This document shows positions 2,180-48,636 of a stretch of 64,000 bases of DNA, in pieces. The stretch comes from Gnetum montanum (lineage: Eukaryota > Plantae > Gnetophyta). Numbering within the stretch: position 1 is the first letter of the stretch; the number at the start of each line of letters is the position of its first letter. Made by a program: the position numbers and the translations under genes. A model generated the notes under the pieces. It was not told the DNA's origin, ran no database searches, and saw nothing but the letters and a program-made list of their open reading frames with translations. The DNA lies in the NCBI GenBank assembly GCA_015680685.1, contig MNCI01002172.1, forward strand, positions 187,895 to 251,894, given 5' to 3'.

Positions 2180-3027
2180 TGATGGGACGCGATATCGCAT
2201 GGGCCACGATATCGCATCGTGATATCGCATCCCTCGTGATATCATGTACGCGATATCGCGTCTTCCCCTGCGATATCGTGTACGCAATATCGTGGTGCGC
2301 CATTATATCTATAAATAAGAGGCAGCTCTCCCTTGTTTCCTCATCCTAGGCTAGATAGTAGGAAAACTCTGGCAGATTGATCACTCCAGAGATAGAATAT
2401 TTTCCATGTGCCCATAGTAGGAGTCCTAAAGTGAATGGATCTTTATTCAAGCAAACATTGTACCTGAACACGAGTTTGTGTACAGCAATAAAGATGAGTT
2501 TCTTGGATAAACCTTGCAGTGCATGGAATAAGATTTTATTTATTGTTATTTATTATCTATTATTTATTATTTGTTATTTACTGCTTTCTCTCTCAACCCT
2601 TCTCTCCTAGTTAAGTGCCTCAGTACGACCGCTTTGAGCACGTGCGTTACGTGTGGTGATCCCAACAACGATTAGCGTTTGGTAGCCACGGTTGCATCGG
2701 TTCAGGGTGTGTACGGTAAGTGGGAACGGATGCTGACACTAGGTAATTTAGACTTAGTTCATTAGTTAGAGTTAGGAATTAGTCTCTCTACCCTTCAACT
2801 CATTAGCATAGGAGACATAAAACATAAAAAGCTATAAAAAAATCATATACCTTAGGCTTACTTAACCATACACCGTGACAACTACAAGTAAGTTTGGGAA
2901 GACAACAAATGATTAACCCTAAGTGTTCCATGGGCGTGTAGGCACTTAGTCTACGGAGTTCGACCGGATCGCACGTGCTACGCTCGTATTCGTATGGTTG
3001 AGTGTAGGGGTATCTAGCCACTCATCA
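2180..3027 (+). repeat. 3' LTR of element A (848 bp)
   Basis: Ends TGATG...CATCA. TATA-like CTATAAATA near 2310. Similar to the LTRs at 25923 and 35137. Confidence 0.92.
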
Positions 3028-4479
3028 ACTACCTTGAGTGATTTTTGAAGGAAACAACAAGAAACATTAATAAAGCAAACCATCTATATAAATTGTAGTA
3101 ACAAGTAATGCATCTCCTTTTGAAATCATTTCAAGCTTCTTTGCAACAAATTCATTACATCATCTTTATTTATTTATTCTTCCCTCATTAATTTTTATCC
3201 CAAGCATACAACAACATCAATGGGAAATAGAAAGAAATCAATGTTGAATAATATTTGTCTAGGCATTTATAGCACATCAGCAACAAAAAATGTCAAAAAT
3301 GAATCAGTCAATTCAATATTTCTTTACACCATAAGCTAAAGAAGAATGACTAAGGATAACATTCAAGCAAAACATGGAAGAAAAATGCCTAACAGAAGCT
3401 GAGGAAGAGAAAAATGCTGAAAATGGTTGAACTCACCATAATTTGCTCCAAATATGTCATCCTCATAGCACTGGTTGTGTCAAGAAAATAATTTTTAAAC
3501 AATTAAACAAAGTAACTCATTTAATCAATTACTAATAATTACCGAACTAGTTATTACCAATGGCAAGTTTTGACCCCCTATTGTTCAACCTTCCCATACA
3601 AATGATCTGATAAAACTATATGTTACCAAAAAATATTAACCCATGTCTAGATCCTTTTTAAGTTGAGCATTGATTTTGCTTATTTTTAAAAACAAATGAC
3701 CTCAAAGAAACATAATTCACTACCATTGGTGCTTTGGTATTCTCCATAAGTTTTGACTTGAAATAAAGTTGCAGTTGTCAACCAAGAGACAAATTCATCA
3801 TCACAAAAAAGTTAGAGCCCAAAATGGAGAAGTATAGAAACAAGGATCAAGGTATTGAAAAAAATAAAAAAAAAGAGTAATATTACTAACCGTGAACATC
3901 TTTATATCCAAATCCTAATGCATAAAGAACTTGTCCATTGATTTATCTATGATTGTACTTAAAATAAATTTATGTTCTTAAAAGTGATTTAATCATTAAA
4001 CACACTTCTCACTCAAGCATAGAAGTTTTTAACTACTCTACTATGAAAACAATTATTGTGATATAAAATAGATGAGTAACAAGTTTATACATAAGCATGA
4101 TATCAATAAATGGATTTCTTTTTCATGAGGTGGAAAAGAGAGAAATACTTGGACAAAGAGAATTGATAAAATACTAGCGTATTATAGGGCTAAGTGTGTC
4201 CTTCCATACTCATTAGTTTTATTTTGCCAACTTAGATTATGTTCTTTTGTATTGTACAAAGTATTAATTTTATGTGTGTTTAGTAAAACTTCAGTCATGT
4301 AGAGAAACTTTGATTATAAAAATATGGGTAGGCCCACAAACACAAGTTTTGATTACACGTTACAAATTTGTAATGGATATAGAAGAAAACATCATGGATG
4401 CCCTTGCATAGTGTTATTTTTTTAGCATCTTTGGAATAGATTTCTTGGTATTGTACAAAGTCTCAACGTACCAAGTTTG

Positions 4480-4791
4480 ATTGTACATATGGATAGGCCC
4501 CACAACCATGACTTTACATTGATATAAATGGCATCATTTATTCAAAGATATAGACATGTTCATGAATAAGCCCCACAACCATGGTTTTTCATTGATGTAA
4601 ATGGTATTATTTATTAAAAGAAATAGACATGTTCAATTGAAAACAGTTATCCAATTTGCAAGTGGACAACTAAGTTTTATTGTACATATGGATAGGCCCC
4701 AAAAACACTACTTTTAATTGAGGTAAATGGTATCATTTATTCAAAGAAATAAACTTGTTCAATTAAAAACTCCTATCCAATTTGCAAGTGG
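4480..4791. repeat. Degenerate tandem repeat, ~73-bp core x3
   Basis: atggataggcccca..cattgat.taaatgg.atcatttattcaaaga.atagacatgttc recurs at ~4489, ~4562 and ~4688. Confidence 0.8.
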
Positions 4792-5379
4792 GTTGAAAAT
4801 AAATGATGGCACATAAGTCATAAATCAATAATGATCTATATCTTGGCATCTATCATTGGTCAAATCCTCCAAATCCACACAAGAAATGTTGTTATTTTGT
4901 GTTCCATATTTTGATGGGAACTCCTCACTCATCACAACCGATGATTTTTGGAGCTAATCCTTCTCCCTAGACTATAAGAATAACAATTTTTCATAATCAT
5001 AGGGAAGGAAGTTAAGCTCACAACAAATCAATCAACCTGCAAAAGTATAACATGGTAAGTGCTCAGAATCTTGGCTCTCAAGAGTTTCTATTTTTTCATA
5101 GATTATTTTCATATTTATCTTCTAATGTTTCAATACATTCAACTTCTAACAATATGAGTATCTATTTCTACATAGATTAAATAACAAAAAAACATCACAA
5201 TCATCTACATACTCAATATAACAAAGCCATTCATAGTTCCATCAAAATTTACAAAATTAATCTATGTTGACATATTCAAAATCACTAATTCCAAATGTAA
5301 ATTTTTTCCCCTCATTCTTCCATAACTTACTACAATCTTGAAATCCAACTTTTCCATTTTCATCAAAAGCTTGAAAGTC

Positions 5380-6296
5380 TACATTTTTCCAAAAAAACTC
5401 CTAATAATATCTTCATCATATTCATCGGCAAGCACAGTAGCCTTAGCATCATATAAAGATTCTTTTTTTCTTTTGTATGCATTGGAAAAATGTTGAATTC
5501 CATCATGGCTATAAAAATAATATCTTTGATCAACATTTTTATTTGACAAGTCATATCCTATAAAACTATTTGGTATACCATCTGCAACAATATTGTCATT
5601 ATGTTTGGAACATAAGTTTGGGAAAGAGCCATCATTTCCTAATTTTAACTATTGAGGACAAACACTATATCTCTCAACATCTCCACGCTCTAAATTCCAA
5701 CTTTTTTTTCTTTTCAATGATAAGCAATATTTCTATAGAATTTAAAAACATTATTCTTGTTAAAACTATATAACTTATATATAAATACATGCTTCTTATA
5801 ACACTTCATTTCATATTTTTCTACCTAAAAAATATAGTTTGCTTGTACACAAGTTGGGTGATTATTATTACTTCCATGTATTACTCTTTCTATAGTCTCA
5901 TCTGACGATTTTCCTAAATAAAGATAACATATTGTTTTTGATAAATTACCTATATATATAAAATAATCATAACATACATCTAATAGAGCATCCTCACTAG
6001 CATACAATGATTCTTGATTATTTTTATATACATATAACAAATGTTGATTTCCATCATGATTATAAAAATGATAAGTCTGATCAACATTTCTATTTGATAA
6101 GTCATACTCTATATGACTATTTGATGTAGCACCAGCAACAAATTTGCCATGATATTTTATACATGATTTTTTCAAAGAGTCTTCATTTCCTAATGTTACT
6201 TGTTCATGATAAATACTATTTCAATCAACATTTGTAGAATCAGAATGCAAATTCCTTTGTCCCTTCAATGATAAGCAACATTTCTGCACAATTTCC
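5380..6296 (-). pseudogene. Two tandem paralogous copies of an unknown ~85-aa protein module (decayed)
   Basis: KSCIKYHGKFVAGATSNSHIEYDLSNRNVDQTYHFYNHDGNQH (6170-6040) aligns with KLCSKHNDNIVADGIPNSFIGYDLSNKNVDQRYYFYSHDGIQH (5620-5490). Stops and frameshifts are present. Confidence 0.6.
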
Positions 6297-6599
6297 ATTG
6301 ATTATATTCGTTAAAACTCAACAAAAATTCTTACAAAATCTACCTTATGCTTATTTTAATTTTTTAGTGTTATAGTTATTGTTTAAAAAAAATCATCAAA
6401 GTTTAGCATTCTTTAAAGTTCAATATCAATAAAATTTATATGTCCTAACTTGTATATTTTTGCTTTATTTAGAATCAAATGGGATCATATCTTATTAGGG
6501 AAGGTTGGCAAGAGTGATCTTCCCATCTACTAATGAACTGTGACACTGGGGATCTAGATGAATGCATGCCAGCAATGACAATTCAAGCTCATTTTCAAT

Positions 6600-7087
6600 G
6601 ATATGGAGTTGCTTTCAAAAACTTTGTATATGAATCCAAGTTGTGTTACCAGAATGCAATATATAAGGATCAGCAAATCAATTCATCGAGATATGTTCAA
6701 ATTTAGAACATGAGCAACGTGATAAATAATTAGTGGTTGTGGCCATTTTACAAATTTGGAAATTCATGTTTCTATTATGAAATTGAGATTATTCCATTTA
6801 ATATACCTAACGATGCATGGTTTGAATGGTGGAAATATTTTGGTCATAATCCATATTTGATGATAGAAAATTCTTCCTCTTTTGTCAAAGGTGCAAATCA
6901 TAGTGATTATTTCTTCTATACAAATCCCAAAGTTAAAAATGTATACACATACAAGTTTGGTTGGACAAGCATGAGTTATTATCTATTTTCCACTATAGAA
7001 AGAAAACTTGTCACCTGCAATTCATTAGGATTTACTTTCTATCAAGTAGTGTACACAATAAACAAGTGGGATAAAAGTTACTTCTAA
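6600..7087 (+). pseudogene. Florendovirus ORF2-like (Caulimoviridae-derived) remnant
   Basis: IPNDAWFEWWKYFG and YQVVYTINKWDK resemble the PxWFxxWWxxFG and (Y/F)xKWWDK motifs I recall from florendovirus ORF2, with similar spacing. The frame extends upstream through TAG stops. Motif recall only, no search. Confidence 0.4.
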
Positions 7088-7559
7088 CAAAACAATGTGC
7101 AAGCTTATAATAGAACTTCATCATTGACAAATGATTTACACATCTTGAATATTCAACTTAATGGTGGACTAACATTGGAAGACCTACAACATCCACTCCA
7201 TCAAGTGTTGTTGGCAAGTCCTTATGCTGGAGATTTTGATTATGATGAAGATCCATAAACTTTAGCATAGATTCTATCTTGCAATGGTAATAAAACAAGT
7301 TACCCTTTCTCTTTATGATTATCTTTTATTTGTAATACTTACACTTGTTTCATGTGATACTACATATGCTTAATGAATAAGGACCACATATTATTTTTTT
7401 TCTGAGGATTACTAATAAATATACATAGGTCTTTACATTAACAATAATATAATGACACCAACTACTAAGAAAACAGTCACTTTTCCTTATGAATAATTGT
7501 TCCCTTTTGCTAAAATCTTTAAGGTACATTCACAATTGCTTATAGTCATTAAGTTACAC

Positions 7560-8795
7560 CAATGTAAGAACCTAGCTTGAGCTTGGTTCAGATGGTTCCA
7601 ATCTAGTTTCCAATAAAGATGGTGGGTGCTTTAGCTAACACATGATCCAACCACAATTTTCTTCAACCGAAATATTTTCTTTAAATCCAAGCTATTCTCT
7701 CTTCATTCCTAGAAAAATTTATCGAATGCATTACTTATCAAATCAACCAAAATGTAGGGAGAAAAAACAAAATATATGCATTTTATCAATACTATTCCCA
7801 TACCAAAAGCTTACTGATTAACTTTCTTAAACAAGTCTCTGCAAAAAAATATTACGATCTTGACTACTAATAAAACTAGCATTAGTTGCATGATCTAAAA
7901 ATGTCAACATAAAATCATAATAGCCTTCAACATTTAACAATCCAACCTAAAAATAAAGAAGAAAAATTCTTAACTGCTTTTTAACATTAATCATGATAAA
8001 TTATGCCTAATGTCACAACATCATCAAACATATTAGGTTGTTATGAATTCCAAGTTGTCTCCAACTAATAACCTCCATAACTTCTTCCATGGTCCCAAAA
8101 CCACCGAGTAATAAGCAAATAAAATTATTTCTACTACAACAAAATACATTAAATATTACAAAACAAAATACAAATATAGCAACTACCTAGTAAACCAATA
8201 AAGACATCTCTGTACTCTGTCATTATTGTTTTTCTCTCAAGCATAGTGTTAATAATATGAATATTGCCGATTGTTTTACCAATGATCTATGTGTAGTAAA
8301 AATCACAAGAAAATACTTAAATTATCAGTATGATATGTACAAGTACACTACACTAACAAAAGATCGTTGTTACTAGAATAGTACCTGCTTAGATGCAAAA
8401 AATTTTGGTACCACTTTGTTATTCAAGATACAAACAATAATCAACTAATAAATTCACGAACAAAATACCTTAATAAGAATCCAAATTCATAATTTTATCC
8501 AAGAACATTTCCTCCCCTACTACAAACAATGTTATCTACAACACCCATTAGCCCAATGCTTCCTCTGCCATATATTAATTCAATTTTTCTTCTAAACTTC
8601 ATACCAAAACAACTAAGTTAAATAAACAAAACATATAAATTTGTTATACATACCTTGAAAAGTAGTAACAATTAACATTACCATTTCTAATCCAAGTTGT
8701 TTTGCAGCATTTTCAAATCTATTATGTTTGCCTAACTGACTTCCACAAAAAAGACAAATTCTTGCCATTTTACTTATTCGCACTTGTCAACACAT
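7560..8795 (-). pseudogene. LOG: LONELY GUY (cytokinin riboside 5'-monophosphate phosphoribohydrolase) pseudogene, 7 exons
   Basis: Exons: 8768-8682 MARICLFCGSQLGKHNRFENAAKQLGLEM; 8596-8499 RRKIELIYGRGSIGLMGVVDNIVCSRGGNVLG; 8415-8385 VVPKFFASKQ; 8286-8187 IIGKTIGNIHIINTMLERKTIMTEYRDVFIGLLG; 8104-8034 GFGTMEEVMEVISWRQLGIHN; 7946-7804 VGLLNVEGYYDFMLTFLDHA; a probable last exon near 7636-7560 (KLDW). This matches plant LOG exon by exon. Several splice sites are broken (GT>AT, AG>AA/CG) and exon 6 is frameshifted. Confidence 0.88.
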
Positions 8796-10587
8796 GTCAT
8801 TAGTTTGACCAAAATGAAAATTTCCATTTATAATCTATTGAGAGGACCAACTACTAGAACATGTTATTCCCAATGCAACAAAAATATAAAATAATGTATT
8901 GCTTTCTGTCATATCGTCACTATCCTCATAATGATTTCTCCTTTTTTTCAACCATGAATATATCTAATAACAAAAGATTTGATCTCCTTCTCGAGCACAA
9001 CAATAACACTATATGGATACATTGATTTAAGGTTAAAAAATACAAGTTGCATAAGAGTCAAGTCCAGTCAATGTAGACTTTGAATGAACATTGATTCAAC
9101 AGATGAATAAACACATCAATCTAAATATTCTAAAGGTAACCACAGTTTTGGTAAACGTCAACGGTGAATATTCTAAAACTAGAAGTGGTTTTGGTAAACG
9201 TAAGCGGTGAGTTTAATTCAGATTGATGTGTTTGGTTATGTTTCAGTAACTTTCATTGTTAGTTTCAAATATTCTAAAACAGTATGGATTTACTTCATGA
9301 AATTCAAATATGAAGTCTTTGAAAAATTCAAGGAATATAAAGTTCTTATTGAAAATCAATTCCAAAAAGAATTAAAGTCCTTAAAAACAAATAATGATGG
9401 AGAATATTTTTTAAATGAATTTGAAAAGTTTTATAAGATTCATAGTATTTTTGTATTATGTAAAGTACCCAAGCTTTACTCCAAGTATTTAAGGAGCTAA
9501 AAACACATTGGATCTAATTTTCAAGGATGTGTTTGTTTATGTTTTAGTAACTTTAATTGCTAGTTTTGGATATTAGGGATCCTTTATAGATGATTAGTCT
9601 AAAACAGTATGGATTTACTTCATGAAATTTAAATGTGAAGTCTTTAAAAAATTCAAGGAATATAAAGTTCTTATTAAAAATCAATTTCACATAGAATTAA
9701 AGACCATAAAAATAGACATTGATGGGGACTATTTTAGATAAATTTGAAAATTTTTATAAGATTCATATCATTTTCAAGTAAAAAATCATTCCATGCACTT
9801 TACAACAAAATAGAGTTGCAAAGTGGATAAATAGATTCTCTTGTAATGAGCTTGAAGTATGATTAGTGATGCTCTTTTTGAAAATAAATTTTGAGCAAAA
9901 GCTATGATGATGGCTTGCTACTTGATTAACAAATCATCTTCATTATCATTGAATGGTAGAATCCCATAAGAGAGATGGTTCAGTAAGAAAGTTTCATTGG
10001 ATCATTTAAGAGCATTTGAGAGTATAGCTTATTATCATGTGTCTAAAGAATGTAGATCTAAATTGGATTATAAACTAATAAATGTATGTTTCTTGGGTAT
10101 GGCCATGGAATAAAAGGATATAAAATATGGAATCCTTATACCAACAAAATCATTTATACTAGAGATGTGTTTATGGAAAAATCTCAACTAGATGAGATTG
10201 AGAAAAAGATTCTAGAAAAAGCTTATTATGATATTGACCAAGAATCATCCACAAAATAAGTTGATGAAATTGAGGATGGCAAAGAAGATATACCTCAAGA
10301 AGAATATCAACCATTAAGAAAGTCAAATTAGGTCAAACGACCATCATAATATTAAGACTCTTATATTTTGTGTATTAGTAATGCTCCTCAAACCTATAAA
10401 AATACTTGTAATTCAAAAGTTAGCAAAGCTTGGAAAAATGCTATGGATGAGGAAATGTAAGCACTAATGAAAAACAAAATATGAAAATTTGTTACACTTC
10501 CTCCCTGGAAGAAAGCTAGCTAGCTACAAATGGCTCTTCAAAATAAAAGAGAGAGAAGTATACAAGGCATAATTAGTGAAAAAATAA

Positions 10588-10953
10588 TGTGGAAGATGAT
10601 GTGTAGACGTTCCACATTATTAGGAGATTGATCTCATATTTTTATTTATTCTAAATAAGATGAGATCCTAGTTGTCCATGCTTATCCATATCCATGCTTA
10701 TCCATACCCATGATTATCTCATCCATAAAGAAGATGACAAGGATCATTCCCATGATTTTAGAGACTCATGCTTATCTCTTCAAATCCATTCTTGGAAGGA
10801 TCCAAGTCTATATAATTGTAGCAGCACATATTCATAAATATATAGATTCTGGATTAACAAATTGTAAGTGTGTTTTTTTTTTTCTAATAATGTTCTGTAA
10901 TTTCTATTTCGCATAGATAGTAGATCTAGGGCCCTTTAGATTCAGATTTCTCA
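10588..10953 (+). repeat. 5' LTR of the Copia element
   Basis: TG...CA ends. Near-identical to 15610-15957, but with an extra ~15-bp tandem duplication (tgcttatccatatcca). Confidence 0.95.
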
Positions 10954-11005
10954 TTTGGTATCAGAGCTCAGTTAGCTCAGATTCTTGACAACAGATCTCT
11001 TCAGA

Positions 11006-14000
11006 ATGGCCCAAAATAATGGATCCGTGTCTCTCCAAATTCCTGTATTCAATGGAGAAAATTATGAATATTGGGCAATTAAGATGAAGACAGTTATGAT
11101 CTGACAAGATCTATAGGATATTGTTGAAGGTGGATTTCAAGATGTTGATCAAGAAACATTTCAAGCCCTAACAAAAGATGAAAAGAATGAAGTCAAGAAG
11201 CTTCGTAAGAAAGATGCAAAAGCATTATTCATCATTCCATCTGGGTTAGATTTGACAATCTTTCCCAAAATTGTGGTGCATCCAACAAGCAAAGCTACAT
11301 GGGATGCACTAGAGATTGTATACAAGGGATTATTAAAAGTTCGTGTTGTCAAGTTACAAGCTTTAAAGAAAGATTTTGAATCTTTGCACATGCTAGATTC
11401 AGAGAATATTGATCAATACATCAGCCGATTTCAACAAGTTTGAAATGGACTTGAATCTTGTGGAGAAACGCTTGAGGAAAGGCATGCTGTTGAAACGATC
11501 CTTCGAAGTGTGACCCAAAAATATGATCCCATCGTCATGGCTATTGAAGAAGCAAGAGATCTTGATAAGATGACCATGGTTGAGCTTGTAGGAAGCTTGA
11601 AGACATACTAGCAAAGAATTGTTGATCATGAGGATTCAATAGCAAATGCATTTCAAGCACAATCCTAGAGATCATTCAATCAAAATCAAAATCCTCAAGT
11701 GGATCCTCATTCAAAGGATGTGGATGTGGTCACGGTAGATCCAGACGTCGTGGCTGTGGAAGATCAAATCAATCAAATGAAGGTAAGCATTGTGATTTCT
11801 ATGGTACCAACACCCACAATACTCATGAATGTTGGTCTAGGAAGAAGCATGAAAAGAAAGGCAAAGCAAAAATTGCAAAAGATGAAGATCACCACAAGAA
11901 TCACCAAAAAGGTAAGCAACTGCTTTATACTGAAGAGGAGGAAGATCACCTCCTGATCTCTACAAAGGCATTAGATGCTAGCAATAACAACAAGTGGTAT
12001 GTTGATAGTGGGTGCAGCAATCACATGACTGGGGACAAGAAACTCTTCTTAAGTCTGGAAACATATGATGGAAAGGTCACCATAGGTAATGGGAAGAAGT
12101 TAACCATTGCTGGGATTGGATTGCTTGCCTTCACAACCATGCAAGGTAACAACTATGTTATTTCCTAGATCTACTTTATTCTAGATCTTTCAAAGAATTT
12201 ATTAAGTGTGGGACAATTATGTCGCAATGGGTATCGTGTTGCATTTGAAAAGAATGTTTGTAAAATCTCTAAGGCTGATGATGATAAGGGTATTTCCATT
12301 ATCCCTATTAGCAAAAATCAAATGTATAAGTTGTAGATACAAAAGGATGTTCAATGCCTCACTGTCACTGACGATGTTACATGGTTGTGGCATGCTCAAT
12401 TACGACATGTCAACTTTAGCTCAATGGACCGCATGTAGAAAGAAGGACTCGTTAGAGGTATGCCAAAATTTTCTTTGTCCAATAGTCATGATTGTGGCAT
12501 ATTTCAACTAGGAAAAATCACAAGATTATCATTTCCTAGGAAAGAACATAGATCTCAAGAAAAATTAGATCTAGTTCATATGGATTTATGCAGTCCCATG
12601 CAAGCATTGAGCCTAGGCAAAAATCGCTATATGTTAATCATCATGGATGATTTTTCCAGATTTGCTTGGGGTTATTTTATGAAATTAAAAGATCAAACAT
12701 TTGGATTTTTTAGAGAATTCAAGATGGCAATAGAAAATCAAAGTGGCAATACAATCAAGCAAATCCAAACAGATCGTGGTGGTGAATTTTTGTCCCAAGA
12801 ATTTGAGGAATTCTACAAGAAGAATGGAATTATTCACCAAACTACCACATCCTATACACCCCCAACAAAATGGAGTAGTTGAAAGGAAAAATAGGACCAT
12901 GGTTGAAATGGCTAGGTGTTTACTACAACTATCAAACTTAGCAGATACGTTTTGGGAAGAAACTTGTGCAACATCAATTTATCTTTTAAATAGATTACCT
13001 TCCAAATCAATTCACAATAAAACACCCTATGAATTCTGGCATGGTTATACACCTAATATTTCACATTTGAAAATCTTTGGTTCACCCTACTATGTGCACA
13101 TCCCTGCCCAAAACAAACAAAAATTAGACGGTAAAGCTATGCCTTGTATTTTCGTTGGATATTCTCCCACATCTAAAGCTTATAGGTTCTATGATAAAAA
13201 CAATCACAAGGTTTTGAAGCAACCAAAATGTTTTTTCCAGCAACCAAAATGTTTTTTGCAGGCCCTAACATCAGCGTGTTTTTTGAGCACCCTCCAGGTT
13301 ATTCTCTTTCCAACATCAAACCCACTCCAACGAAGCCAAGCAGGCACACATCTCAAGACTCTTCTATCAAATGGGGACGTCCTTCCCAGAATCATGGACA
13401 CCATGGGAATTGTGTGACTCCCAGGCCCCAATGGCCCCTTGTTTCTGCAGGGTCTACCTCACCTATTTCCCACACACTAGCGCCTCTCCTTCCTCACTAG
13501 TGCTCCCTCCATTTGGTGCAACAATAGCCAGACATCAATTTTGGTGCCCCAACTCCATGTTTTTTGGTTCTCGAGTCATCATGCCCTCCAGCTGCCTATT
13601 CTGTTATTTCGATAGCATCCAATCCACATTTCTTGTATTCGCTAGCACACAATTCGCCCTTTTGGACTTCCTTCCATCCACCATTCTATCCAATGCTACT
13701 CCCTATGGGCCTCTAACTCCACATGCTTTTGTGCCAACGTCTACAAACATTTTCCTTCCTCTTTCTACGCCATTTTCTACAGAAATTCCCTCCTTGATCT
13801 AGTCAGTAGCCGCGCCCTCCTAGGTCCTTCCCTTTGTGCCAACCATGACTCCTCCTCGATAGTCTCTTTCTTCCTCATAGGTGGCTCTCTCTCACCCAGC
13901 CTCCCAAATGTTGGATCTAAATTTTCACCACTGCCTAACCCACAGCCATTCTCACTAGCACCATGTTTAGCCAACCCAAGCTAATGCAAATGCTGCCACT

Positions 14001-15600
14001 GCTCTCTTCTCCAACATGGGTGATGACTTCTACGCACTACTTACACCGATGGGGGGGAGCTCTGATGGTTTGGCAAAACCATCCACCATCGTCGAAGCTG
14101 CACTAGATGATCATTGGAATGCAGCAATGGAATATGAGCTACAGAAAATCAATAAAAAAAACACTTGGAGTCTAGTTCCTCATCCATCTGGTAAGCTAGT
14201 CATTAGCTTAAAATGGATATCCAAACTCAAGAGAAATCAATATGGTGAACTAGACAAATTCAAAGCTTGCCTAGTTACCAAGGGATATCTCCAACAACAA
14301 GGCAGATACTTTGATGACAACTTTGCTCCTGTTTCACAATTGGAATCTATGAAAATCTTTCTAGCTATTGCTGCACAAGCTGGCTATGTGGTATATCAAC
14401 TGGATGTGAATTCCTCAATGGCGTTCTGAATGAAGAAGTCTATGTGGAACAACCCCCAGGTTTTGTTGATGAAGGAAAACAAGATCATGTGTACAAGCTT
14501 CATAAAGCTTTGTACGGGCTCAAGCAAGCTCCACGTGCATGGTATGCACATATTCATTCATTTTTCATCCAAGAGGGGTTCATCCATCTTCAGTCCCAAA
14601 CTACAATTTACAAAAAGGTATCTGGAGATAATTTTAATTTTTTCTTGTCTGTATGTAGATGATTTAATTTATTTTTCTTCTACAATTGCATTAGGAAATG
14701 ATTTTCTTAATGCTATGCAAAATGAGTTTGAAATGTCTAATCTAGGGAAAATGTCATATTTTCTGGGTTTTCAAGTAATCCAGAGAAAAAATCCATTTCC
14801 ATATGCCAAATGAAATTTTCCCGATCCTTACTTGAGAAATTTGGCATGATTAATAGTAATCCCTCAGACACACCACTCTCCCTTAGTATAAAACTTACCA
14901 AGAATGATAAATCTCCTTCAGTCAATCCATCACTATATAGATCCCTAGTTGGTGGTTTATTGTATCTCTCTAATACTCGTCTAGATATTCAATATGATGT
15001 CAATTACCTTTCTTGGTTCATGCAAGATCCGCATGAATCACATTGGAAAGCTACAAAACGAGTTCTACATTACCTGAGAACTACAACAGATTTTGAGATC
15101 ACATTCCATCAACATACAAACTTCAAGGTATGGGGATACATTGATGCAGATTGGGGAGGTGACCTTGATGATCGAAAGTCAACTTTTGGTTTTTGTCTCT
15201 TCTTCGGTCCATTGCTCATCTCTTGGGGATCAAAGAAGTAGTCTTCAGTTGCACTCTCAACAACCGAAGCAAAATACATAGCTACATCAAGTGTTGCTTC
15301 TCAAGCCATGTGGATTCACTCTATTTTCATTGAAATGGGATTCACACTTGATCCTCCCATTCACTTATACTATGACAACACAAGTGCTATTGCAATGGCT
15401 CACAATCTAGTTTAGCATGGGCGTACCAAGCACATTGATATCAAGCATCACCATCTCAGAAGCTTGATCCAAGACAACATCCTCAACATGGAATATTGTG
15501 CAATTGAAGCACAACTAGCAGATATTTTTACCAAGATTTTGAGCCATGAGAAGTTTACATCCTTCAGAGACCTCCTTGGAGTGGAACCCCTTACCATCAT
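11006..15600 (+). pseudogene. Copia gag-pol (gag, protease WYVDSGCSNHMTG, integrase, RT YVDD, RNase H DADWGGD), interrupted by stops and frameshifts
   Basis: Motifs: [70 protein letters not shown]. Confidence 0.93.
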
Positions 15601-15609
15601 GGGGGAGTT

Positions 15610-15957
15610 TATGGAAGATGATTTGTAGACATTCCACATTATTAGGAGATTGATCTCATATTTTTATTTACTCTAAATAAGATGAGATCCTAGTTGTCCA
15701 TTCTTATCCATACCCATGATTATCTCATCCATAAATAAGATGATAAGGATCATTCCCATGATTTTAGAGACTCATGCTTATCTCTTCAAATCCATTCTTG
15801 GAAGGATCCAAGTCTATATAATTGTAGCAGCACATATTCATAAATATATAGATTCTAGATTAACAAATTGTAAGTGTGTTTTTTGTTCTAACAAAGTTCT
15901 TTAATTTCTATTTAGCATAGATAGTAGATCCAGGGCCCTTTAGATTTAGATTTCTCA
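15610..15957 (+). repeat. 3' LTR of the Copia element
   Basis: Follows the PPT. Starts TA (TG mutated), ends CA, then the TSD. Confidence 0.95.
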
Positions 15958-16330
15958 AATAATACTCTCAAAAGAAGGGTATCATTCATGAAAGAATCTT
16001 TATACTAGTAGTAAAAATAACCTTTATAAAAATTATGTTGTCTTTTATGGTTGTTTTAGATCTTGAACTTAATCAAATACATGTTAACACTACTTTTCTT
16101 CATGGAAATTTTTATGAAGAAATATACATGTAGCAACTTGAAGGTTACGTGGTTAAAGGTAAGAAAAACATGATATGTCACACTTATATGGGTTGACACA
16201 ATTCCTAAGGATGTGGTATAAGAAATTTAATTGTTGCATTTTAAGTTTGATTTTGTAAGGACTAATAATGATCTTTGCATTTATTTAAAGAAAGACTCAA
16301 AAACATATTTAATATTACTATTGTATGTTG

Positions 16331-17688
16331 TGGGATCAATTAACTCAAAAGGGGGGTTGAATGAGTTTCACATAAAAAAATATGTCATATAAAGATAAAT
16401 AAAAAAATTAAACTACATGAGATGCAATATAGCTAACAATAGTAAAGGAAACTAGAAAAGGAAAAATCTCACTAATGTGTGTGGTAAAGCTCACCCCCTT
16501 AAAATCCACTAGAATTTAAACCATGGTTGAGGTTACCATTGTGGTAGATCCTCAAATGCTACACACTCCAAACAAGGTGAACAATCTTGGTATCCCATAG
16601 GACTTCCAACGACCTCATAACATCAACCAACAAGTTGTGATTCTCTCATAGGACACACTCACATACCACTCAAGGTTGATAAAAAATGTCAAATATTTGA
16701 ACTTTTCTAGGTTTCAATGTAAATGTCCCCATAAAGAGAATCTACACTCTACAAAGCTCTTAATGAATACAATATAAATGAAAGTGTAGAGAGATAATTC
16801 TTCAAATCAAATCTACACCAATGTACTTCATACTAGGCAATGAAATAGCTAGCCCTAAAAACAAATCCAAACACACAAGATATATAAGAAACAAGTAATG
16901 GATCTTAACAACATACACTCATGTGTGAAATAAATCAATTAAAACCTTAGGAGACTAATGCAGCAATGGTTATGTAGCTCCTAAGAATAATTTTCCAACC
17001 CTTGCAAGATCTTAGTCAAGAACAAGAACAAGAACCCCAATCCAATGTATTATGTCAATGATTACCCTTGGATTATTTGGATTATTTTGAGAAATAAATC
17101 TAAGCACTTTCCTTTATAATCTTTACTTCATGCAAGTTTCTTGCTTCAAACTAGAGTTAGGAAAACAACTAGAAATGAGTTTTTTTTTCTCAAACAACGA
17201 CACAAGATGTCCCGTTTAAGGCTTAGGCATCCACTTTAAGATAGCCAAGTTTCAAGTTGAACATCTAGGACAAGCTAAGATGTCCACCTTGACAACTACT
17301 AAGACTCTACTAGGATTCCATAATTGGGACATCTAGACTCTAGCCTTGAACATCTAGGATGAATTGAAGATGAACTATGAACTTGGCCTATTCTCTACTT
17401 AGATGTTTTCTATGAAGCATGAAGGTCTACGCTATAACCAAGATTGAGTGAAGATGTTCAATCCTTACTTTTTCCCATTCTAAAATTCTTGATCTAGTTT
17501 CTTTAACTCTTTTTTTTCACCTGGGACTTCAACAAATAGCTTCCTTGATCTCTGATCATTCCTTAGGTTGACTTCCCTAATCTTCAAAAACTATTTTACT
17601 AAAACTTACATAAGCTTACAACCATACAAGAAAGCACATCTCCATTCTTTAAAGTTTAACACATCAAACTAAAACAAGGTAATCAACA
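16331..17688 (-). mobile_element. Solo LTR (1358 bp), probably Copia/Sirevirus-like, inserted in the host RT
   Basis: TG...CA ends, TSD TGTTG/TATTG. Removing it restores LYVD. GGGGGGTTGAATGAG near the left end resembles the reverse of the Sirevirus U5 motif TATTCACCCCCCT. Confidence 0.7.
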
Positions 17689-18204
17689 TATTGATCATAA
17701 GTTAATATTAGAAAATAATATACAAGAAATTTCAAAAATAAAATATCAATTGTCATCTCAATTTGAGATGGACCTTAGTACCACAAGGAAAATCTTAGGC
17801 ATGGAATTAAAAGATATAGAAAAGATAAAAGCTATGGCTTGGTCAATCTACATTTGTTAATAAAATTTTAGAATATTCAATATTAAGATTGTAACTTGAT
17901 AAATACTCCATTTTCTATGGACATGTAATTATATCCATGGAGGAATGTCCAAGATCAAATGATGAAATGGAGGTAATGAGTAAAATTTCCTATGGTAATA
18001 TTGTTGGTAGTTCCATGTATGCAATGGTCTATACTAGTCTTGATATTACAAATGTAGTGGGAGCTATAAGGAATTTTATATTTAATTCTAGAAAGGAATA
18101 TTGGATGGGTATTAAAAAATTTTAGGTATCTTCAAGGTACCACTAATTTTTTCATCTATTATGAGAAAAGTTTCTTTGCATTGCATGGCTCTATAGATGC
18201 TAAT

Positions 18205-19078
18205 TAATGAGTAGCAATATTCCCTATGCCCAACCACACAAATCACTAGCGTGTATGTGTAATCTGGTCAAATTGCGTGAACTTTATTTACCTAAGTGGC
18301 CAATATTCCTAATTAGTAAAATTTGTAATCATTAGTCATTGTCTTTCCAATCAACACTTATGTTAATCTATGTATATAATTAAGTGTGGTTGAGATATAA
18401 GATATTTGTTTTTATGCTTTTTATTATTTTTTTTGCTTCTAAAATGATATAAATAAAGAATTAATATTTAGGTTAACTAATCAATTAACTACTTAATTCA
18501 CTAACTAGCCTAGTGTTGAGTATTTTTTCCCACTTTCTCTACACATCCTAAACCTATACTAATGTTGCTGAGTCACCAATTGTCTACTGCTAGACATACC
18601 AAGTATCCACTATTAGGATTACCAAGTGTTAATATATTTTGTTCAAAGTGATCGTACTCATGTTGCTTACAAACTACAATATTAATTACATAATAATAAG
18701 AAAGTAAATTGCATGTAAAGTGTTGGGATGTAAAGTTATGCTAATCCAAGTGCTGCAATGGATAAAAGATATCTCAATTTTATTTCTGCTCATGAAAATA
18801 TGTCCAAGTATAGATGCACTTAAATAAGATATCTTATAATCACTTGAATCCATGCTACGAGCACTCAAAGAGAATATTCTAACTTCTATGGGAAGAAACT
18901 ATAAGATTTAAGCTTTGGCAATGACTGAAAGGTACCATAAATGTAGGGGGTATGTGCATTTATATAGATAAAGCCTGCATCATCATTGACATATCTATGT
19001 TAATGCATCCTAAGATATGTTGATGATGTTGCATCGATGGGCCTACCTTAATGCAACCATCTTATTGATGTTGCATCA
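18205..19078 (-). repeat. 3' LTR of element C
   Basis: On the minus strand it starts TGATG after the PPT and ends ..CTACTCATTA (CATCA decayed). Confidence 0.8.
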
Positions 19079-19299
19079 TACCCCCATGACTGATTAAAGA
19101 CTCATCCTTGAGTAGACAAAAATGTGATCAAGCTTCTTACAAAATTTAGGGAAGTATGGAATTTTATTGACTAACTAACTAACTTTGATTGCCATATTTT
19201 ACATATTACAAACATTGGTGCATTTTCCAACAAAAAATTAGACACAGATAAAAATTAGCAAGGGTTTGTTAAATGGATAGAGGCGGGATAAAGTCTTCT

Positions 19300-22107
19300 T
19301 ATAGTGCCTAGAGGTGGAGGTTCCTATGGCTCTAATGGTCCTTCATTGCATCTGAGTGCTGTTGGAGGTTCAAGCTACCTTGCTACTATCACTATTGCTG
19401 CTAGAAACTTGAAGGCATCTAAGAGTGCCTTCATTTTCTTATCTTTTCTTCGTGAATCATATATGGTCTAGCCTGCTTTACCTAAATTAGCTAGTGTTAG
19501 GATATCCCACAAACATGGAAATGAAAAAAACATCTCCTTCATATTGATGAACTAGACTATGAATGTTTTATGTTCAACATCAAATGTTCTGACAAGGTTC
19601 TATAGCTCCTAGTAGTTGCGTGTCCTCCTTGTCAAGTTCTTAGCAACAATTCGTTGATATGTGAATTTGCTTCTAAGAACTTCAAGCTCTACGTTGGCTA
19701 TTTTCAACTTTTCTTTTATATCTTTATAGAGCTTGAACTCCACCTCATAAAAGAGGCCGAAGCTGGCAACCTACTTCTCTAACTTAGTCCTTGGCCTCCC
19801 TATTGTTAGCATTACTAGGTTTGCATAGAAAAGGTCAACAAGCTTTATGTATTCTATCATATTTTTGATTTGCAACTCCTTCAAGCATATTATTGCTTGA
19901 TCGTATGTATTTAGTTCATCAAAGATGGGCTACCACACATCGTCTCTTTACTAGAGTTATTAGATAACCTTATTTACCTTCACCTTAGCCAATTTGATTT
20001 CTTTTTCATTAACCTCTTTGAGCAATTCGACATGGTCCTTGTAGTGATTCTTCACCTTTCAAAATTTTAGGGCCTCATTTTTCCAAGTGGCAATCTCAAT
20101 TGCAGTTCTCTGCTAAAGGGCATGAACCTCTTCCATTAAGATATTTTGATTTTCATCAACTAACCTCCTCAAATCCAAGTACATCTTAGTAAGCTACTCT
20201 TGCTACTAGAATTCCACAAGCAATGGTTATCTCTAGTAAGGACCAAGTTCTCCTTCAAACTTGCAATAGGTCACGATCAATGTTGCCTGTCATTACTTTT
20301 GACATGGATGAATCAAAGATCATCATTTCCTTGACATTCTCAACCTCCTAATACTTCTGTTGAAGATATTGAAAAGCTTCATCTCTTGTTAGTTCAAGCC
20401 AAAGAATGGTAGGATTAGAGAGATGGGCTTGTAATTCTACAACCTCAGTAGCCAACCATTGATTATTAGCAACAGCCTCCTCAAGTTGCACATTGGTGAT
20501 TAGCAACTTATCCCTTATCTCTAAAAGATGCAACTAGTTAGTCATGACATCATCCAAGAGATTGAAGATCTCCGAAAGTGATTGCCTAGCTCCTATCAGT
20601 TGTTCCAACATTTCTTTCTATTGGGCAACACTCATATGTTCACTCCTTACTCCTTTTGATGCATGTATGTCAGCCATGGTAGCAATGTCTGATATCGATG
20701 CAATAAAAGCATTAAGAGCTTTTGCAACTCTATCCACCACCACCTCTGCTACTCTTTCTTAGCCCTTATGTGTCAAGACAAGGATTGTTGCCTCTTCTCC
20801 TTCTTCCAACATGATAGATAAGGCAACTACATTTCCTAAAATTTTGAGAAATGTCTATCTAGGAATGGATGCAGTGCCTCTTTGGTACTTGGATTAGGTC
20901 TAATGGATGTCTTATTTCTTTGTGTGAAAAATAGCAATGTTGTCTCACTGTCTATCCAACTAATGGTCCTTACATCCTCATTAAGGTGGCTCATGATTAG
21001 ACGGTAGATAGATGATTATCCACCATCTCCAAATCCTTCTTGTTACCACAGCTATTGCTCTAAAAGTTTTTTAAGACACTTAGTGGCTACAAGCATCTCT
21101 AGTATTGTTTATGGGGCTGCAAGTGGTGGTGGTTATGGATACTCCTCCTTGTGAACCTAAGCAGTAGTTTTATCTTTCATCATCTCCTGCCATGATGCAA
21201 TAGGAACATAGTAGATCACATCATTGAAATAGCAGGCTATTCCTCCCCTTTTGCATAATTCTAATTAAGCAATAAAAGAAGGATCTTTCTACACTTCTCA
21301 TTTTTCTTGAAACAACTTTCTATGTTAAGGAAGATGAGTTGGGGAGGTTAATAGGCAATTTCCACTTAGAGCCACATATGCCCTAATGGAGAAGGCTGTC
21401 ACCTTTCTTAGACTCACTGTTGGGTTGAAGTGATAGGTTGTGATCTTCAAATAGGTTCTTTTCACCTTTTCTAGGGCACTATACTCCTTACGATCCACTC
21501 CATGGCACCATTGGATGCATTCTTTCTTTGCCTTGAGATCCTCCTACGTTGAGATTCTTACTATCTTGGCCCCAATGTTAGGCAAACCTAAGGCTTCCGC
21601 AATGACTTCAATTGAGTAGAAGATTGTGATGTCTTTGATTTTGACTAATGCATCTCCTTGTCAATTGTTCTAAAAGAGGTAACTTTCCTCCATGTACCAT
21701 TCCCCACTATTGGAGAGAATGAACCATAGAGAAGACCCCTACAACTATGTCTTAACCTCTTTAGGCCCCAACTCCAAAAATAGTCTAAAGTTTAACTCTT
21801 GCAATATAGAACTTTGGACCTTCCTAGTTGGGATCCTCTCCAAGTAAGCTTCAATGAGTGTGGCCTCTAAGTTAGGTCTTGGTCTTAGAACATCATCCTA
21901 CTTAGATTGGCATGTTTTTGTAGTAGAAATATGTCTAACAAATTCCACCTTGGGCTCCTTCAGAAGAGACATGATAACATGCACAACCTCAGCTACTTAC
22001 TTCTGGCATTGTTGTTGTTGTTGTTGTTGTTAGTCCCTTTCTCCTTGACGTTACTTATTCCTATGTGGTGACAGCCCTCCTACCTACAATCCTCTTTTGG
22101 GTGTCAT
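19300..22107 (-). pseudogene. Extra (env-position) ORF of element C, ~930 codons: polyQ N-terminus, plant-transposon-like domain, long coiled coil
   Basis: ATG at 22107 follows TGCAG. Reads MTPKRG..QQQQQQQ..ITIFYSIEVIAEALGLPNIG..LLEIRDKLLITNVQLEEAVANNQWLATEVVELQAHL. Stops in the part I translated are TAG/TAA/TGA, as expected from C>T decay. The 3' end is approximate. Confidence 0.7.
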
Positions 22108-25100
22108 CTGCAATTACAAACATAACTCATGATTAGCATTTTCACATAACCTTTGTTTCCTTTGGATACCTTCCTTTGTTAGATTAGGTTATGTTAATTT
22201 CTTAGACATTAGGATTTTATTGCTAAGTTCTTATTTTATGATCGTAGGCTTGTGATATTATCTTTTTATTATTTTATTTATGCTCTAACAGAGGTTTATT
22301 ATTGATATTAACTCATTGTGATTATTATTTTAATAACCTATTCATGGGACGTTAGAAAAATTTCAAAAAACATCCTATGAGAATCTAAGGTTTGAAGCCC
22401 CTATGATATAAAGCATATCTCTGGTGGCTCAAGGATAAAAAATATAGGCAAAATCAGGTAAGCAATTTGAAAGTTATGATGCTCGAAATATTCTTTGGCT
22501 CTAAAAAAATGGCAAAAACTCCTCTAGTGCTTTGAGAAAATGGTGAAAATGAGCTAAGTATCATGCATGTTTATAGGATTTTTATCTTATGTCAACAAGG
22601 ATGGATCAATGAAGCTATTCTTAACTATATTTTCACTTTAAAAATGGAGGAATTTTGGATGAGGTTGGGGACAAAACAAAGCCAAATAAAAGCCAAAAAT
22701 ATGTAGAATGATGTCAACAACATGAAAGAGGAGGGTATTTTTGACCAATTGGAAGCAATTAGAGCATACTGGATGAGTTCTTTGAGCATGTTTTCATGCC
22801 AAATAAATAAAAACTATATGTTGTAATGCTATCAAGGTGATTGATTGCACAAGCGGCCCATGGTTAGGGACTTTAACTTAAGGTAGACAAAAAAAATACA
22901 AGTGGGTTCTCCCCAAATTAGGCATATGTCTATTATGCCCTTGCATACGTTCATGACAAGGAGTTCATGGGCATCAAGGATGATTAATGGTTGGTTTAAG
23001 TTAAATTCCATATTCATGAAAGAAATTATCCTAGGGCTATGCCATCTAGAAAATAAACTTGTCAATTTGCCATGCCATGAGGTAGTGAGGTGATAGAAAA
23101 TGAAGTGAGAAAATGGTAGATAGAGAAAATGGTGGAGGGATAATCTACATCTTGGTTATGAGATCCTTGGTAAAAATTATGATTAAGATGATCTAATACT
23201 GGTACGTTCCAAGTCTAAACTAAGTCCATTCCATTCATAGTGATCTTGTATTGACATATTCCTCCTCTTTGTTCATAAAGAGTTCATGACGATTCCAAAG
23301 GATAACCATCACTCCAAGAGAAGAGGAAAAGAAAAGAAGAAAGTATGTAGAGCCTTAGTTAGATGGGGTGGCTTTAGGCATGGGTAACATGTCTTTCCAA
23401 CCCTGTAACCAGTGCTTGTAGCCCATTATTGAGTTTAAGGGATGTGCTTTGAATTCCTACCATTGTTGTATTGTTATTTGTTATTTTTCATAGAAACCAC
23501 ACCATTCAAAGGCATGCTTTCTTTTTATGGTTGACAATAGGAGTGATGATATACCACTAGAGAATCATAGAACTTAAGAAAGAAGTTGAGAGAAGAATAC
23601 AACAAATCCTCTTAAGGTTACACCCTTCTCCATTTCCACTTGGTCCTTTCCTAGTTTATTGAGCAAATTTATTACTTTTAGTTGTAACGTGAAAGAACCT
23701 TAATGTTCCCATGATACAGATTTCCCAGGGAACAAATGGAATGGATGGATGTCATGAACTCACTACCTCACACGATTAGAAAATTGACAAATTGTTAGTA
23801 GAGAACATAATTCAACGACAAAATTTTACCTTTTGGTTAATCAACCATAACATTAATAGTTGAATTAAATAAAATTCAAAATTTATAGTAGTAATAAACA
23901 AAATCAGAGATTTCCAACAAGACTAAATATAATAAACAAAGAAGATAAGAAAACAAGAAAAAATATATAAAATAATTAATAAAATATTAAGAAAAAAGAA
24001 AATATATAAAGAACATTACAAAACAAAAAGGCAAAAAGTTGATTATCCTCATCAAGATGTTACAATGAATGGTTGTCTCCCCCATGACTAAGTTGAGAGG
24101 AGGAGATCCAAAAAATAGAGCATGCTTGTCCTTGGGTAGATGTGTTAGTGTTGTTGGTTACTTGAGGTTCCATGAATGACTTAAGTTGTTGTACATTGAC
24201 TAACATGCATATTTTAAGGGTTGGTCAAGTGGTAAATTTTCATGACCTCACAACGAAAAGTTGAACAGATTATGTAAGGTCCTTCCCATAACATTTGGAA
24301 CTTAGTGCATTGTGGCACATGCATTGGATTCTAATAAAAAACTTTATCACCAAGTTGGAATGTAACTTTTCTTATCTGTGCATCATGACATTATTTGTTG
24401 TGTACCTTATGCACTTGATTCATCATTAGGACTATTCGTTGGTTTTCATCTAGCACATCAAGTGTCATAAGACATTCTTTTTAGGTTAGATTAATGTTTA
24501 GGTCAAGCTTACATGTAGTTGTAAGTGTACAAAGTCTGGCTTGGATTGGAAATTTGGATAATTTTTCATACACTAACTTATAGGGAGAGTAGCCTATAGG
24601 AAGTTTTCATGTTGAACAATATGTTGAAAGAGCATCATTAAGTTTGGTACTCCATTCCTTCCTATATTTACTAATTATTTGTGTCAAGATCCTAGTGATC
24701 TTCTTATTCGTGACCTCAGCTTGACCGTTGGCTAGGGGGTGATAGGGGGTTGTCAGTTTATGTTGCAACCCCAAGTGTTACATTAGTTTTTGAAAAATAG
24801 ACCCTATAAAATATGTTCCATTATTTGAAATTAGTGCTCTAGGCACACCAAACCTATTTAACACTTGTTGTTGAACAAACCAAGTTGCAATGATATATGT
24901 ACAATCAAATATAGTTGCAAATTCAACTCATTTGGTAGAGCAATCAATAACAACTATAATGTAGGCCTTCCCATTTAACATGGGAGTGATGGATCCCATG
25001 AAGTTAATTCCTCAAAGGTCAAAAGGCTCCAATGGTTGGATCCATTGTTGAAGCTCCTCCATTCATACAGTCATTCCTCCATCTCATTGACATCACTAGC

Positions 25101-44460: not shown

Positions 44461-44700
44461 ACAATTCAAAGATTCTTCTGCAAGTTCAAAGATGCCTAGA
44501 TTACTTAGTGTATAAGAATGTACACTAACATACAAATGTCACAATTCAAAGATTCTTCTGCAAGTTCACAGATGCCTAGATTACTTATTGTATAAGAATG
44601 TACACCAAGATCGAAATGTCACAATTCAAACATTCTTCTACAAGTTCAAAGATGCCTACGTTACTTACTGTATAAGAATGTACACTAAGATGCAAATGTC
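44461..44700. repeat. 80-bp tandem repeat x3
   Basis: acaattcaaagattcttctgcaagttcaaagatgcctagattacttagtgtataagaatgtacacta... starts at 44461, 44541 and 44621. Confidence 0.92.
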
Positions 44701-48547: not shown

Positions 48548-48636
48548 TTCACGTTACCAGACTGTGCTCGGTTCCTGATCTCCCTGAAAAGTGAGGACGG
48601 ATGTAAGGGGGGCTGAGACAGGGGCTGGGGCTGGGG

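What the first reader, a model, noticed from the sequence alone, without database searches (positions are those of the whole stretch)
3028..9150. Cargo block inside the TE island: cytokinin-activating LOG, a pararetrovirus-like ORF and an unknown duplicated module
Seen: about 6 kb of uniformly AT-rich, C>T-decayed DNA packs a complete intron-containing LOG copy (-), a convergent Florendovirus-ORF2-like frame (+), a tandemly duplicated unknown module (-), a gag-like snippet (FLPYDYEKLLF, ~5010-4970, -), further spliced-looking fragments (3.5-3.95 kb) and tandem repeats. Known: LOG performs the final cytokinin activation step in meristems, and Helitrons, CACTA and Pack-MULEs capture intron-containing gene fragments. 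Inference: this is a remnant of a large mobile element that carries a hormone-activating enzyme and viral sequence, possibly able to influence meristem or germline cells. No termini are visible, and the left end is cut by element A.
Basis: partly seen in the sequence, partly recalled or inferred. Interest (0 to 1): 0.85.

Follow-up and report, generated by a model that had tools for sequence, protein, structure and literature searches.

The report
Plant repeat carrying cytokinin enzyme gene
This stretch is a broken inner piece of a plant repeat found in many copies in four organisms, likely a jumping DNA element, and it carries a whole gene for the cytokinin-activating enzyme LOG that is dead here but was likely intact when the repeat spread.

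Summary
The core claim holds. A 7-exon, 6-intron plant LOG gene lies at 8768-7631 (-). This copy is dead: 4 of 12 splice dinucleotides lost, a frameshift, PGG read as LGG. Public DNA runs of four organisms show 3161-9023 as one repeat unit. Summed contig depth in run X1 is 60-509 times that of this copy's own allele. That means at least about ten and probably about a hundred copies, introns and spacers included. Other copies mostly carry the canonical LOG letter where this one is damaged, so the family ancestor was likely an intact enzyme gene; one codon is unresolved. All relatives leave the window at 9023 with one shared sequence. So 9023 is a break in this copy, the neighbouring Copia is not part of the unit, and neither end of the element is in view. 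The element class is unknown, and dispersal against tandem array is untested. The florendovirus-ORF2 and gag labels got no support from any search that ran; the one sensitive search never ran. No spliced LOG RNA was seen, and nothing shows an effect on meristems. Best reading: a LOG gene captured as DNA by a large transposon and amplified as a passenger.

The parts
3028..9023 (.). Inner fragment of a multi-copy repeat unit; both true ends missing
   Evidence: X1 depth 333-2800 in 22 of 22 bins 3161-8902 against 5.5 for the own allele at 9034-9167
8682..8768 (-). LOG exon 1 (ATG at 8768; donor intact)
8499..8596 (-). LOG exon 2 (donor reads AT)
8385..8415 (-). LOG exon 3 (acceptor reads AA)
8187..8286 (-). 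LOG exon 4 (catalytic Arg kept; His and Pro of the motifs lost here)
8034..8104 (-). LOG exon 5 (catalytic Glu kept; acceptor reads CG, donor reads AT)
7804..7946 (-). LOG exon 6 (frameshift near 7849, absent from 11 contigs of other copies)
7631..7708 (-). LOG exon 7, degenerate, early stop; assigned by splice site and position only
6479..7315 (+). Broken reading frame facing LOG (7 stops in 278 codons; open core 6734-7084); origin not established, florendovirus-ORF2 likeness recalled only
   Evidence: no hit in 12, 15, 18, 25, 27, 38, 61
6001..6318 (-). Unknown module, copy 1, opening at an acceptor-like site
   Evidence: no hit in 25, 45, 64
5450..5767 (-). Unknown module, copy 2 (73.6% like copy 1)
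4801..5040 (-). Exon-like stretch with FLPYDYEKLLF; gag label unsupported
4470..4791 (.). 73-bp tandem repeats, variable among copies
   Evidence: joints
3437..3960 (-). Short exon-like pieces with donor-like sites at about 3891, 3724, 3557, 3437; unidentified; lower depth than the rest
9034..9234 (.). Single-copy filler between the unit and an old Copia integrase; not part of the family
   Evidence: depth 5.5-13.5
2607..3027 (+). End of a Gypsy-type LTR that cuts the unit on the left; its other end is outside the window

Best explanation
The block is a decayed inner piece of an old repeat family with many copies, likely a large DNA transposon, that likely captured a whole intron-bearing host LOG gene as DNA and spread it as a passenger while the gene was likely still intact. 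Shown: the gene and its damage here; many diverged copies of every part, introns and spacers included, in organisms A, B, C and F; linkage of LOG to the facing frame in other copies; the break at 9023. Inferred: (i) capture at the DNA level, because all six introns are kept and several spliced-looking pieces lie on one strand, as in Helitron or Pack-type cargo. Helitron is my first choice and CACTA/MULE second; the class is not shown. (ii) An intact ancestral enzyme, from the majority letters of other copies. (iii) Silencing and C-to-T decay after insertion. (iv) Later cutting of this copy by a Gypsy insertion on the left and a repair junction to a Copia on the right. This copy makes no enzyme.
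For: Depth: X1 bins are 60-509 times the own-allele depth, median 236, over 22 bins. That is about 107 after the mean contig-overlap correction and about 8 in the worst case. The tool warns that summed depth is no copy number. An independent floor: 26, 11 and 16 distinct contigs in X1, X10 and X6 cross 9023. Part means in X1: module 1160, + frame 2090, spacer 1565, LOG 1593, left pieces 546. Contigs of other copies span LOG exons and introns (X1 records with 27-54 differences). Others join 7356 to 7769 (X5) and 7545 to 7656 (X1 2 contigs, X5 1). Other copies: canonical acceptor of intron 4 at depth 1752 of 1757 (X1), 1083 of 1107 (X10), 1591 of 1606 (X6); one more base at the exon-6 frameshift in 11 X1 contigs. 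Of 11 majority letters shown in exons 1-6, 4 give the P0001 residue, 2 a similar one, 2 are silent, 2 neither, 1 unresolved. Of 59 near-invariant LOG columns this copy lost 13, and private decay alone predicts 10.6 +/- 2.9; 69 of 102 other columns differ from P0001 against 15.9 predicted. TE-like CpG and CHG loss throughout.
Against: No terminus, target-site duplication, transposase or helicase was found. Dispersal was not tested, and contigs cannot tell dispersed from tandem copies. No single contig spans more than about 400 bases of the unit, so whole-unit linkage rests on even depth and a few joints. Only 40 of 176 majority differences were displayed. The one at 8211 would by itself give a stop in exon 4, and the other two letters of that codon were not shown. 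The state of the PGG proline and of the two dead donors in other copies is unseen. The left pieces have about a third of the depth, and far less in shallow run X17 (5-19 against 24-236), so the unit is not uniform. The column test used one plant LOG and 119 mostly bacterial ones.
Confidence: 0.6

Rival explanations
1. Same element, but LOG is a working accessory gene kept by selection inside the element. Active copies would raise cytokinin locally and favour dividing meristem cells that carry them.
For: The ancestor kept the invariant columns while the variable ones diverged. All six introns are uniformly short, 82-98 nt. CHG sites are kept in LOG exons (10 seen, 11.1 expected) but lost in its introns (2 of 5.9) and in the rest of the block (33 of 88.6) (small counts, one of several comparisons made). 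Precedent for an accessory captured gene: KAONASHI Ulp1 in non-TIR MULEs (PMC13317346, passage).
Against: The constraint may all date from before capture, since host LOGs show the same pattern. RNA: depth under 0.7 on LOG in X22; 50 of 12.9 million reads on 7560-9560 in X19, carrying intron letters, with no splice joint. No close protein relative among 546 candidates.
Confidence: 0.13
2. Not a transposon but a host segment holding a divergent LOG paralog, amplified by tandem or segmental duplication and then silenced.
For: No termini or transposition genes seen. Nine LOG duplicates occur in one Y-linked region of Populus euphratica (PMC7947767, passage).
Against: Tens to hundreds of copies, most 80-95% alike, at similar depth in four organisms. 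Compact packing of unrelated pieces within 6 kb. This copy sits alone in the 64-kb window.
Confidence: 0.15
3. The unit is the extra region of a large LTR retrotransposon transcribed on the + strand, where antisense genes keep their introns through reverse transcription.
For: All spliced-looking pieces are on the - strand, the one unspliced-looking frame is on +, and there are tandem repeats; such extra regions are recalled from Tat/Ogre elements, not tested.
Against: The adjoining Copia is joined by single-copy filler and is not part of the family. No primer site or LTR in the block. The gag label is unsupported.
Confidence: 0.09
4. The unit is an endogenous pararetrovirus that picked up LOG.
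For: A tryptophan-rich motif order in the + frame resembles florendovirus ORF2 as recalled; no call tested it positively.
Against: No movement, coat, protease, RT or RNase H domain in any of six frames. No tRNA-Met primer site. The frame has 278 codons against 45-58 kDa for ORF2 (PMC4241990, passage).
Confidence: 0.03

Closest known systems
Plant LONELY GUY cytokinin phosphoribohydrolases (Arabidopsis At2g37210/2a33, Asimina LOG8 P0001)
   Same: Same gene: seven exons and six introns as in rice LOG (PMC8989509, passage), 49% identity to P0001 without gaps, catalytic Arg and Glu kept (residue roles recalled)
   Different: Dead in this copy, part of a repeat of tens to hundreds of copies, more divergent at variable sites than decay explains, TE-like base composition
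KAONASHI (Ulp1 domain transduplicated into non-TIR MULEs)
   Same: Host enzyme sequence carried as a gene by a DNA transposon family (PMC13317346, passage)
   Different: There the cargo is a protease domain in an element of known class; here it is a whole hormone-activating enzyme gene and the class is unknown
Helitron-like element moving type-A cytokinin response regulator copies in Populus, and nine Y-linked LOG duplicates in P. euphratica
   Same: Transposon-linked copies of cytokinin-pathway genes, partial or intact (PMC7947767, passages)
   Different: A few recent copies in sex-determining regions, and the LOGs there are not described as transposon cargo in the passages read; here one LOG is part of an old, abundant unit shared by four organisms
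Helitron and Pack-TYPE (Pack-MULE, Pack-CACTA) gene capture
   Same: Several intron-bearing pieces packed on one strand in a repeat (general features recalled)
   Different: Usually gene fragments; here all seven exons, likely intact at amplification; no termini seen
Florendovirus ORF2
   Same: Recalled motif likeness only
   Different: Shorter, broken, with no ORF1 beside it; no search confirmed homology

Membership tests
Plant LOG gene | PF03641 domain and likeness to solved LOG structures | tested here: met
Plant LOG gene | Seven exons, six introns | tested here: met
   count as in rice LOG. That the intron positions are the canonical ones is recalled; no plant genomic LOG was obtained (one search kept 80 uninterrupted, bacterial-type loci)
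Functional LOG (this copy) | PGGxGTxxE motif, open spliced frame | tested here: not met
   LGG, 4 of 12 splice dinucleotides lost, frameshift
Functional LOG (family ancestor) | Motif residues, splice sites and frame intact in most copies | tested here: inconclusive
   Shown differences mostly favour it; 8211, the proline and two donors unresolved; 40 of 176 rows shown
Functional LOG (family ancestor) | Cytokinin-nucleotide phosphoribohydrolase activity (the motif alone does not prove it, PMC8989509) | not testable with these tools
   needs an assay
Transposable element (any) | Many copies | tested here: met
Transposable element (any) | Copies dispersed, with shared ends and unrelated flanks | not testable with these tools
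   no genome held; the left end is cut by an LTR, and 9023 is a private break
Helitron | 5' TC, 3' hairpin plus CTRR, RepHel | not testable with these tools
   ends not in the window; no RepHel in 3001-9302 or 18200-24201
CACTA or MULE | Terminal inverted repeats, target-site duplication, transposase | not testable with these tools
   ends not in the window; scattered CACTA pentamers are at no boundary
LTR retrotransposon | LTRs, primer site, gag-pol belonging to the unit | tested here: inconclusive
   none inside the block; the Copia beside it is excluded; unseen parts could hold them
Endogenous florendovirus | ORF1 with MP, CP, AP, RT, RH upstream of ORF2 | tested here: not met
   definition
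Endogenous florendovirus | Sequence homology of the + frame to ORF2 | tested here: inconclusive
   no hit, all weak for distant relatives; full HMMER search never ran (queue full, 10 of 10 tries); fold pLDDT 38

The most novel reading that the evidence does not exclude
A plant transposon family keeps its own cytokinin-activating enzyme under selection and uses it, as gall-forming microbes use LOG-type genes (recalled), to push the meristem cells that carry it to divide: a selfish element with a hormone gene.
Probability: 0.13. Interest if true: 0.9.

Novelty: new variant of a known kind. Interest (0 to 1): 0.6.

Why it matters
Gene capture by plant transposons is known, but the cargo is mostly fragments. 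A whole hormone-activating enzyme gene amplified to tens or hundreds of copies, and likely intact when it spread, gives a direct test of an open question: are captured genes passengers, or are they kept because they help the element? With this many copies dN/dS within the family can answer it. Even as passengers, the copies would inflate LOG gene counts in this lineage and could make small RNAs against the host's own LOG genes (inferred, untested). I found no report of LOG as transposon cargo in six literature searches, which cover open-licence PMC and bioRxiv only.

Tried and rejected
No genome is held, so copy mapping, synteny and termini could not be done. + frame: word-based protein search, 0 of 166 candidates; Atlas with the open core, no usable hit; viral contigs, 0 of 6 pattern matches; motif scan of viral contigs, 0 of 120 loci matched by tblastn at E<=1; metagenomes, 0 of 47; single-sequence fold pLDDT 37.8, so no fold search was run. 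The full HMMER search met a full queue in 10 of 10 tries. The supplements of PMC4241990 that could be read hold no ORF2 sequences for the terms asked; one .doc file could not be read and may bear on this. Module: 0 of 202 candidates; Atlas best 0.76, below lead level; differences between the two copies are even over codon positions, 32/36/29, so no sign of coding constraint in that frame. Rfam: 0 matches in 2900-10700. The family's continuation beyond 9023 is not elsewhere in the window. The Copia as part of the unit was rejected. Zero stops in 161 LOG codons is not significant alone (P about 0.25). A LOG tree was not built: only 1 plant sequence among the 120 listed. One search had three exon ends misplaced (two by one base, one by three), corrected; its codon read-outs lie outside the affected stretches. 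No RNA holder was listed in the index. Earlier findings of the scan: nothing in 4 look-ups. I guessed a gnetophyte host from genome features and used the name in two paper searches; no call tested it and nothing rests on it.
Full report
Setting. The window is plant DNA: nested LTR retrotransposons over the first 39 kb, then a GC-rich PB1-domain gene and further exon-like frames. No genome is held. Copy number and neighbours were therefore tested by laying public sequencing runs on the window. Organisms and runs are cited by their codes.

The LOG gene is real. A read-through Pfam scan of all six frames of 3001-9302 gave one family, PF03641, E 7e-12. The best solved structure is Arabidopsis At2g37210, E 6.5e-17, and the best of 176 protein hits is a plant LOG8 (P0001). 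Seven exons can be placed (8768-8682, 8596-8499, 8415-8385, 8286-8187, 8104-8034, 7946-7804, 7708-7631) with introns of 85, 83, 98, 82, 87 and 95 nt. The first 161 codons have no stop and match P0001 at 79 of 159 aligned residues with no gap. Rice LOG also has seven exons (PMC8989509, passages). This copy is dead: the donors of introns 2 and 5 read AT, the acceptors of introns 2 and 4 read AA and CG, exon 6 shifts frame near 7849, exon 7 opens with an early stop, and the PGG motif reads LGG.

The block is one repeat unit. 18 of 24 listed runs, from six organism labels and seven studies, hold part of it; I laid 5 DNA runs of four organisms and 2 RNA runs. At 80% likeness every one of 22 bins from 3161 to 8902 has summed depth 333-2800 in X1, and the profile is alike in X5 (organism B; rank correlation 0.94). 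The window's own allele is seen as contigs without a single difference at 8981-10066, depth 5.5-8.3, and alone at 9034-9167, depth 5.5. The raw ratio is 60-509, median 236. Overlap between short contigs inflates this: about 107 with the run's mean contig length, about 8 in the worst case. The tool itself says summed depth is no copy number. A separate floor comes from 26 distinct X1 contigs crossing one point, 9023, which is at least 13 loci if both alleles differ. Introns and spacers are as deep as exons, so ordinary host LOG genes cannot explain it. Contigs with 27-54 differences span LOG exon-intron stretches. Others join the 3' side of the + frame to LOG across deletions (7356 to 7769 in X5; 7545 to 7656 in X1 and X5). 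Against uniformity: 3161-4204 has about a third of the depth and nearly vanishes in shallow run X17, and no contig spans the unit.

The ends are not in view. On the left an LTR ends at 3027 (CATCA), and the element it belongs to runs out of the window. On the right, depth falls from about 800-2000 to 5.5 after 9023 in X1, and likewise in X10 and X6. The contigs that leave at 9023 (26, 11 and 16, plus 10 RNA reads) all go on with one sequence, agreement 0.88-0.94. At a true element end, the LTR end at 3027, agreement is 0.39-0.40 in the two deep DNA runs X1 and X5, and 0.42-0.61 in X17 and X22. So the family continues upstream of LOG, this copy was broken there, and the Copia integrase from 9204 is a later neighbour joined by about 200 nt of filler. 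That continuation is not elsewhere in the window. The filler-to-Copia part is also present once in organism C with 13 differences in 216 nt, so this locus, and the amplification before it, likely predate the split of A and C.

The family's LOG was likely intact. This copy differs from the majority of copies at 109 places in X1, 45 of them of the C-to-T or G-to-A decay type; only 40 of 176 rows were displayed. Among those, other copies have the canonical acceptor of intron 4 (1752 of 1757 depth in X1, 1083 of 1107 in X10, 1591 of 1606 in X6) and the usual G at +5 of the intron-2 donor. Eleven X1 contigs have one more base at the exon-6 frameshift. Of 11 majority letters in exons 1-6, 4 give the P0001 residue, including the His before the catalytic Arg; 2 give a similar residue, 2 are silent, 2 do neither, and 1 (8211) would alone give a stop, with the rest of that codon unseen. 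At 59 near-invariant columns this copy lost 13, where its private decay predicts 10.6 +/- 2.9. At the other 102 columns it differs from P0001 at 69, where decay predicts 15.9. The ancestor of the copies had therefore diverged widely while keeping the core, which is the mark of selection for the enzyme. This cannot say whether the selection acted in the host gene before capture or inside the element. A weak hint for the latter: CHG sites survive in the exons (10 of 11.1 expected) but not in the introns (2 of 5.9) or the rest of the block (33 of 88.6).

Expression. In X22 depth on LOG and the + frame is under 0.7. In X19, 50 of 12.9 million reads lie on 7560-9560, 45 of them under 95% alike, with intron letters and no splice joint. 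About 26% and 2% of these runs were read, and the tissues are unknown. Nothing shows a working copy today.

The other cargo is unidentified. The + frame has 7 stops in 278 codons and an open core of 117. No search found a relative, but all are weak for distant kin and the full HMMER search never ran. Its motif order resembles florendovirus ORF2 as I recall it; that is a lead only. Florendovirus ORF2 is 45-58 kDa and follows a polyprotein ORF1 (PMC4241990, passages), of which the block has no trace, so this is not a florendovirus insertion whatever the frame's origin. The duplicated module is real (73.6%) and unidentified. The gag label found no support.

Mechanism and rivals. Six retained introns argue for capture as DNA, and several spliced-looking pieces on one strand fit Helitron or Pack-type cargo (recalled). 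I put 0.6 on a large DNA transposon carrying LOG as a passenger, 0.13 on the same element keeping LOG as a selected accessory gene, 0.15 on tandem or segmental amplification, 0.09 on the antisense extra region of an LTR element, and 0.03 on an endogenous virus.

Comparison with print. Captured genes kept in transposons are known, such as KAONASHI in MULEs (PMC13317346, passages). Helitron-linked cytokinin response regulators and nine Y-linked LOG duplicates are reported in Populus (PMC7947767, passages). Six searches (listings only) showed no report of LOG as cargo of an abundant repeat; subscription literature is not covered. Passages of PMC4411674, PMC13308828 and PMC8620675 added nothing on this unit.

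Verdict. A real and unusual repeat-borne LOG; a new variant of transposon gene capture; class and function open. Interest 0.6.

Noticed in passing
window 4205-4465 and 4727-5248: RNA run X22 has depth about 8-32 per mate direction here, from a related copy (all reads differ at 4854 and 4896, at least 6 further differences); part of the unit is transcribed from some other locus while LOG is not.
   Followed up: no
window 9034-9234: Single-copy filler with a 14-bp inverted pair (about 9108-9121 / 9220-9233), a doubled TTTGGTAAACGT motif and CpGs kept (4 of 5.0 expected); looks like a break-repair junction.
   Followed up: partly
window 9204-18200: Old Copia with a duplicated integrase start (9225-9451 / 9526-9774, 79%), holding a younger Copia at 10588-15957 (LTRs 91% alike, target duplication AATAA, tRNA-Met primer site) and what looks like a solo LTR near 16330-17650.
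   Followed up: partly
window 7940-8038, 8100-8389, 8312-8673: Single DNA contigs of organism F skip stretches of LOG, one roughly intron 5; letters between are unknown, so these may be deleted, intron-less or merely diverged copies.
   Followed up: no
window 46730-48553 (-): PB1-domain gene with 67% GC and undepleted CpG in a 29-35% GC landscape.
   Followed up: no
window 24569-25909 and 31377-32710: 1.35-kb inverted pair at 69% identity, one arm in a Gypsy integrase region: an older relative inserted in the opposite direction.
   Followed up: no
window 19300-21900 (-): Long decayed frames without a Pfam family, probably the accessory region of another retrotransposon.
   Followed up: partly
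window 44460-44702: Three 80-bp tandem copies, 90% alike, near the PB1 gene; the window also holds a 664-base gap near 35610-36275.
   Followed up: no
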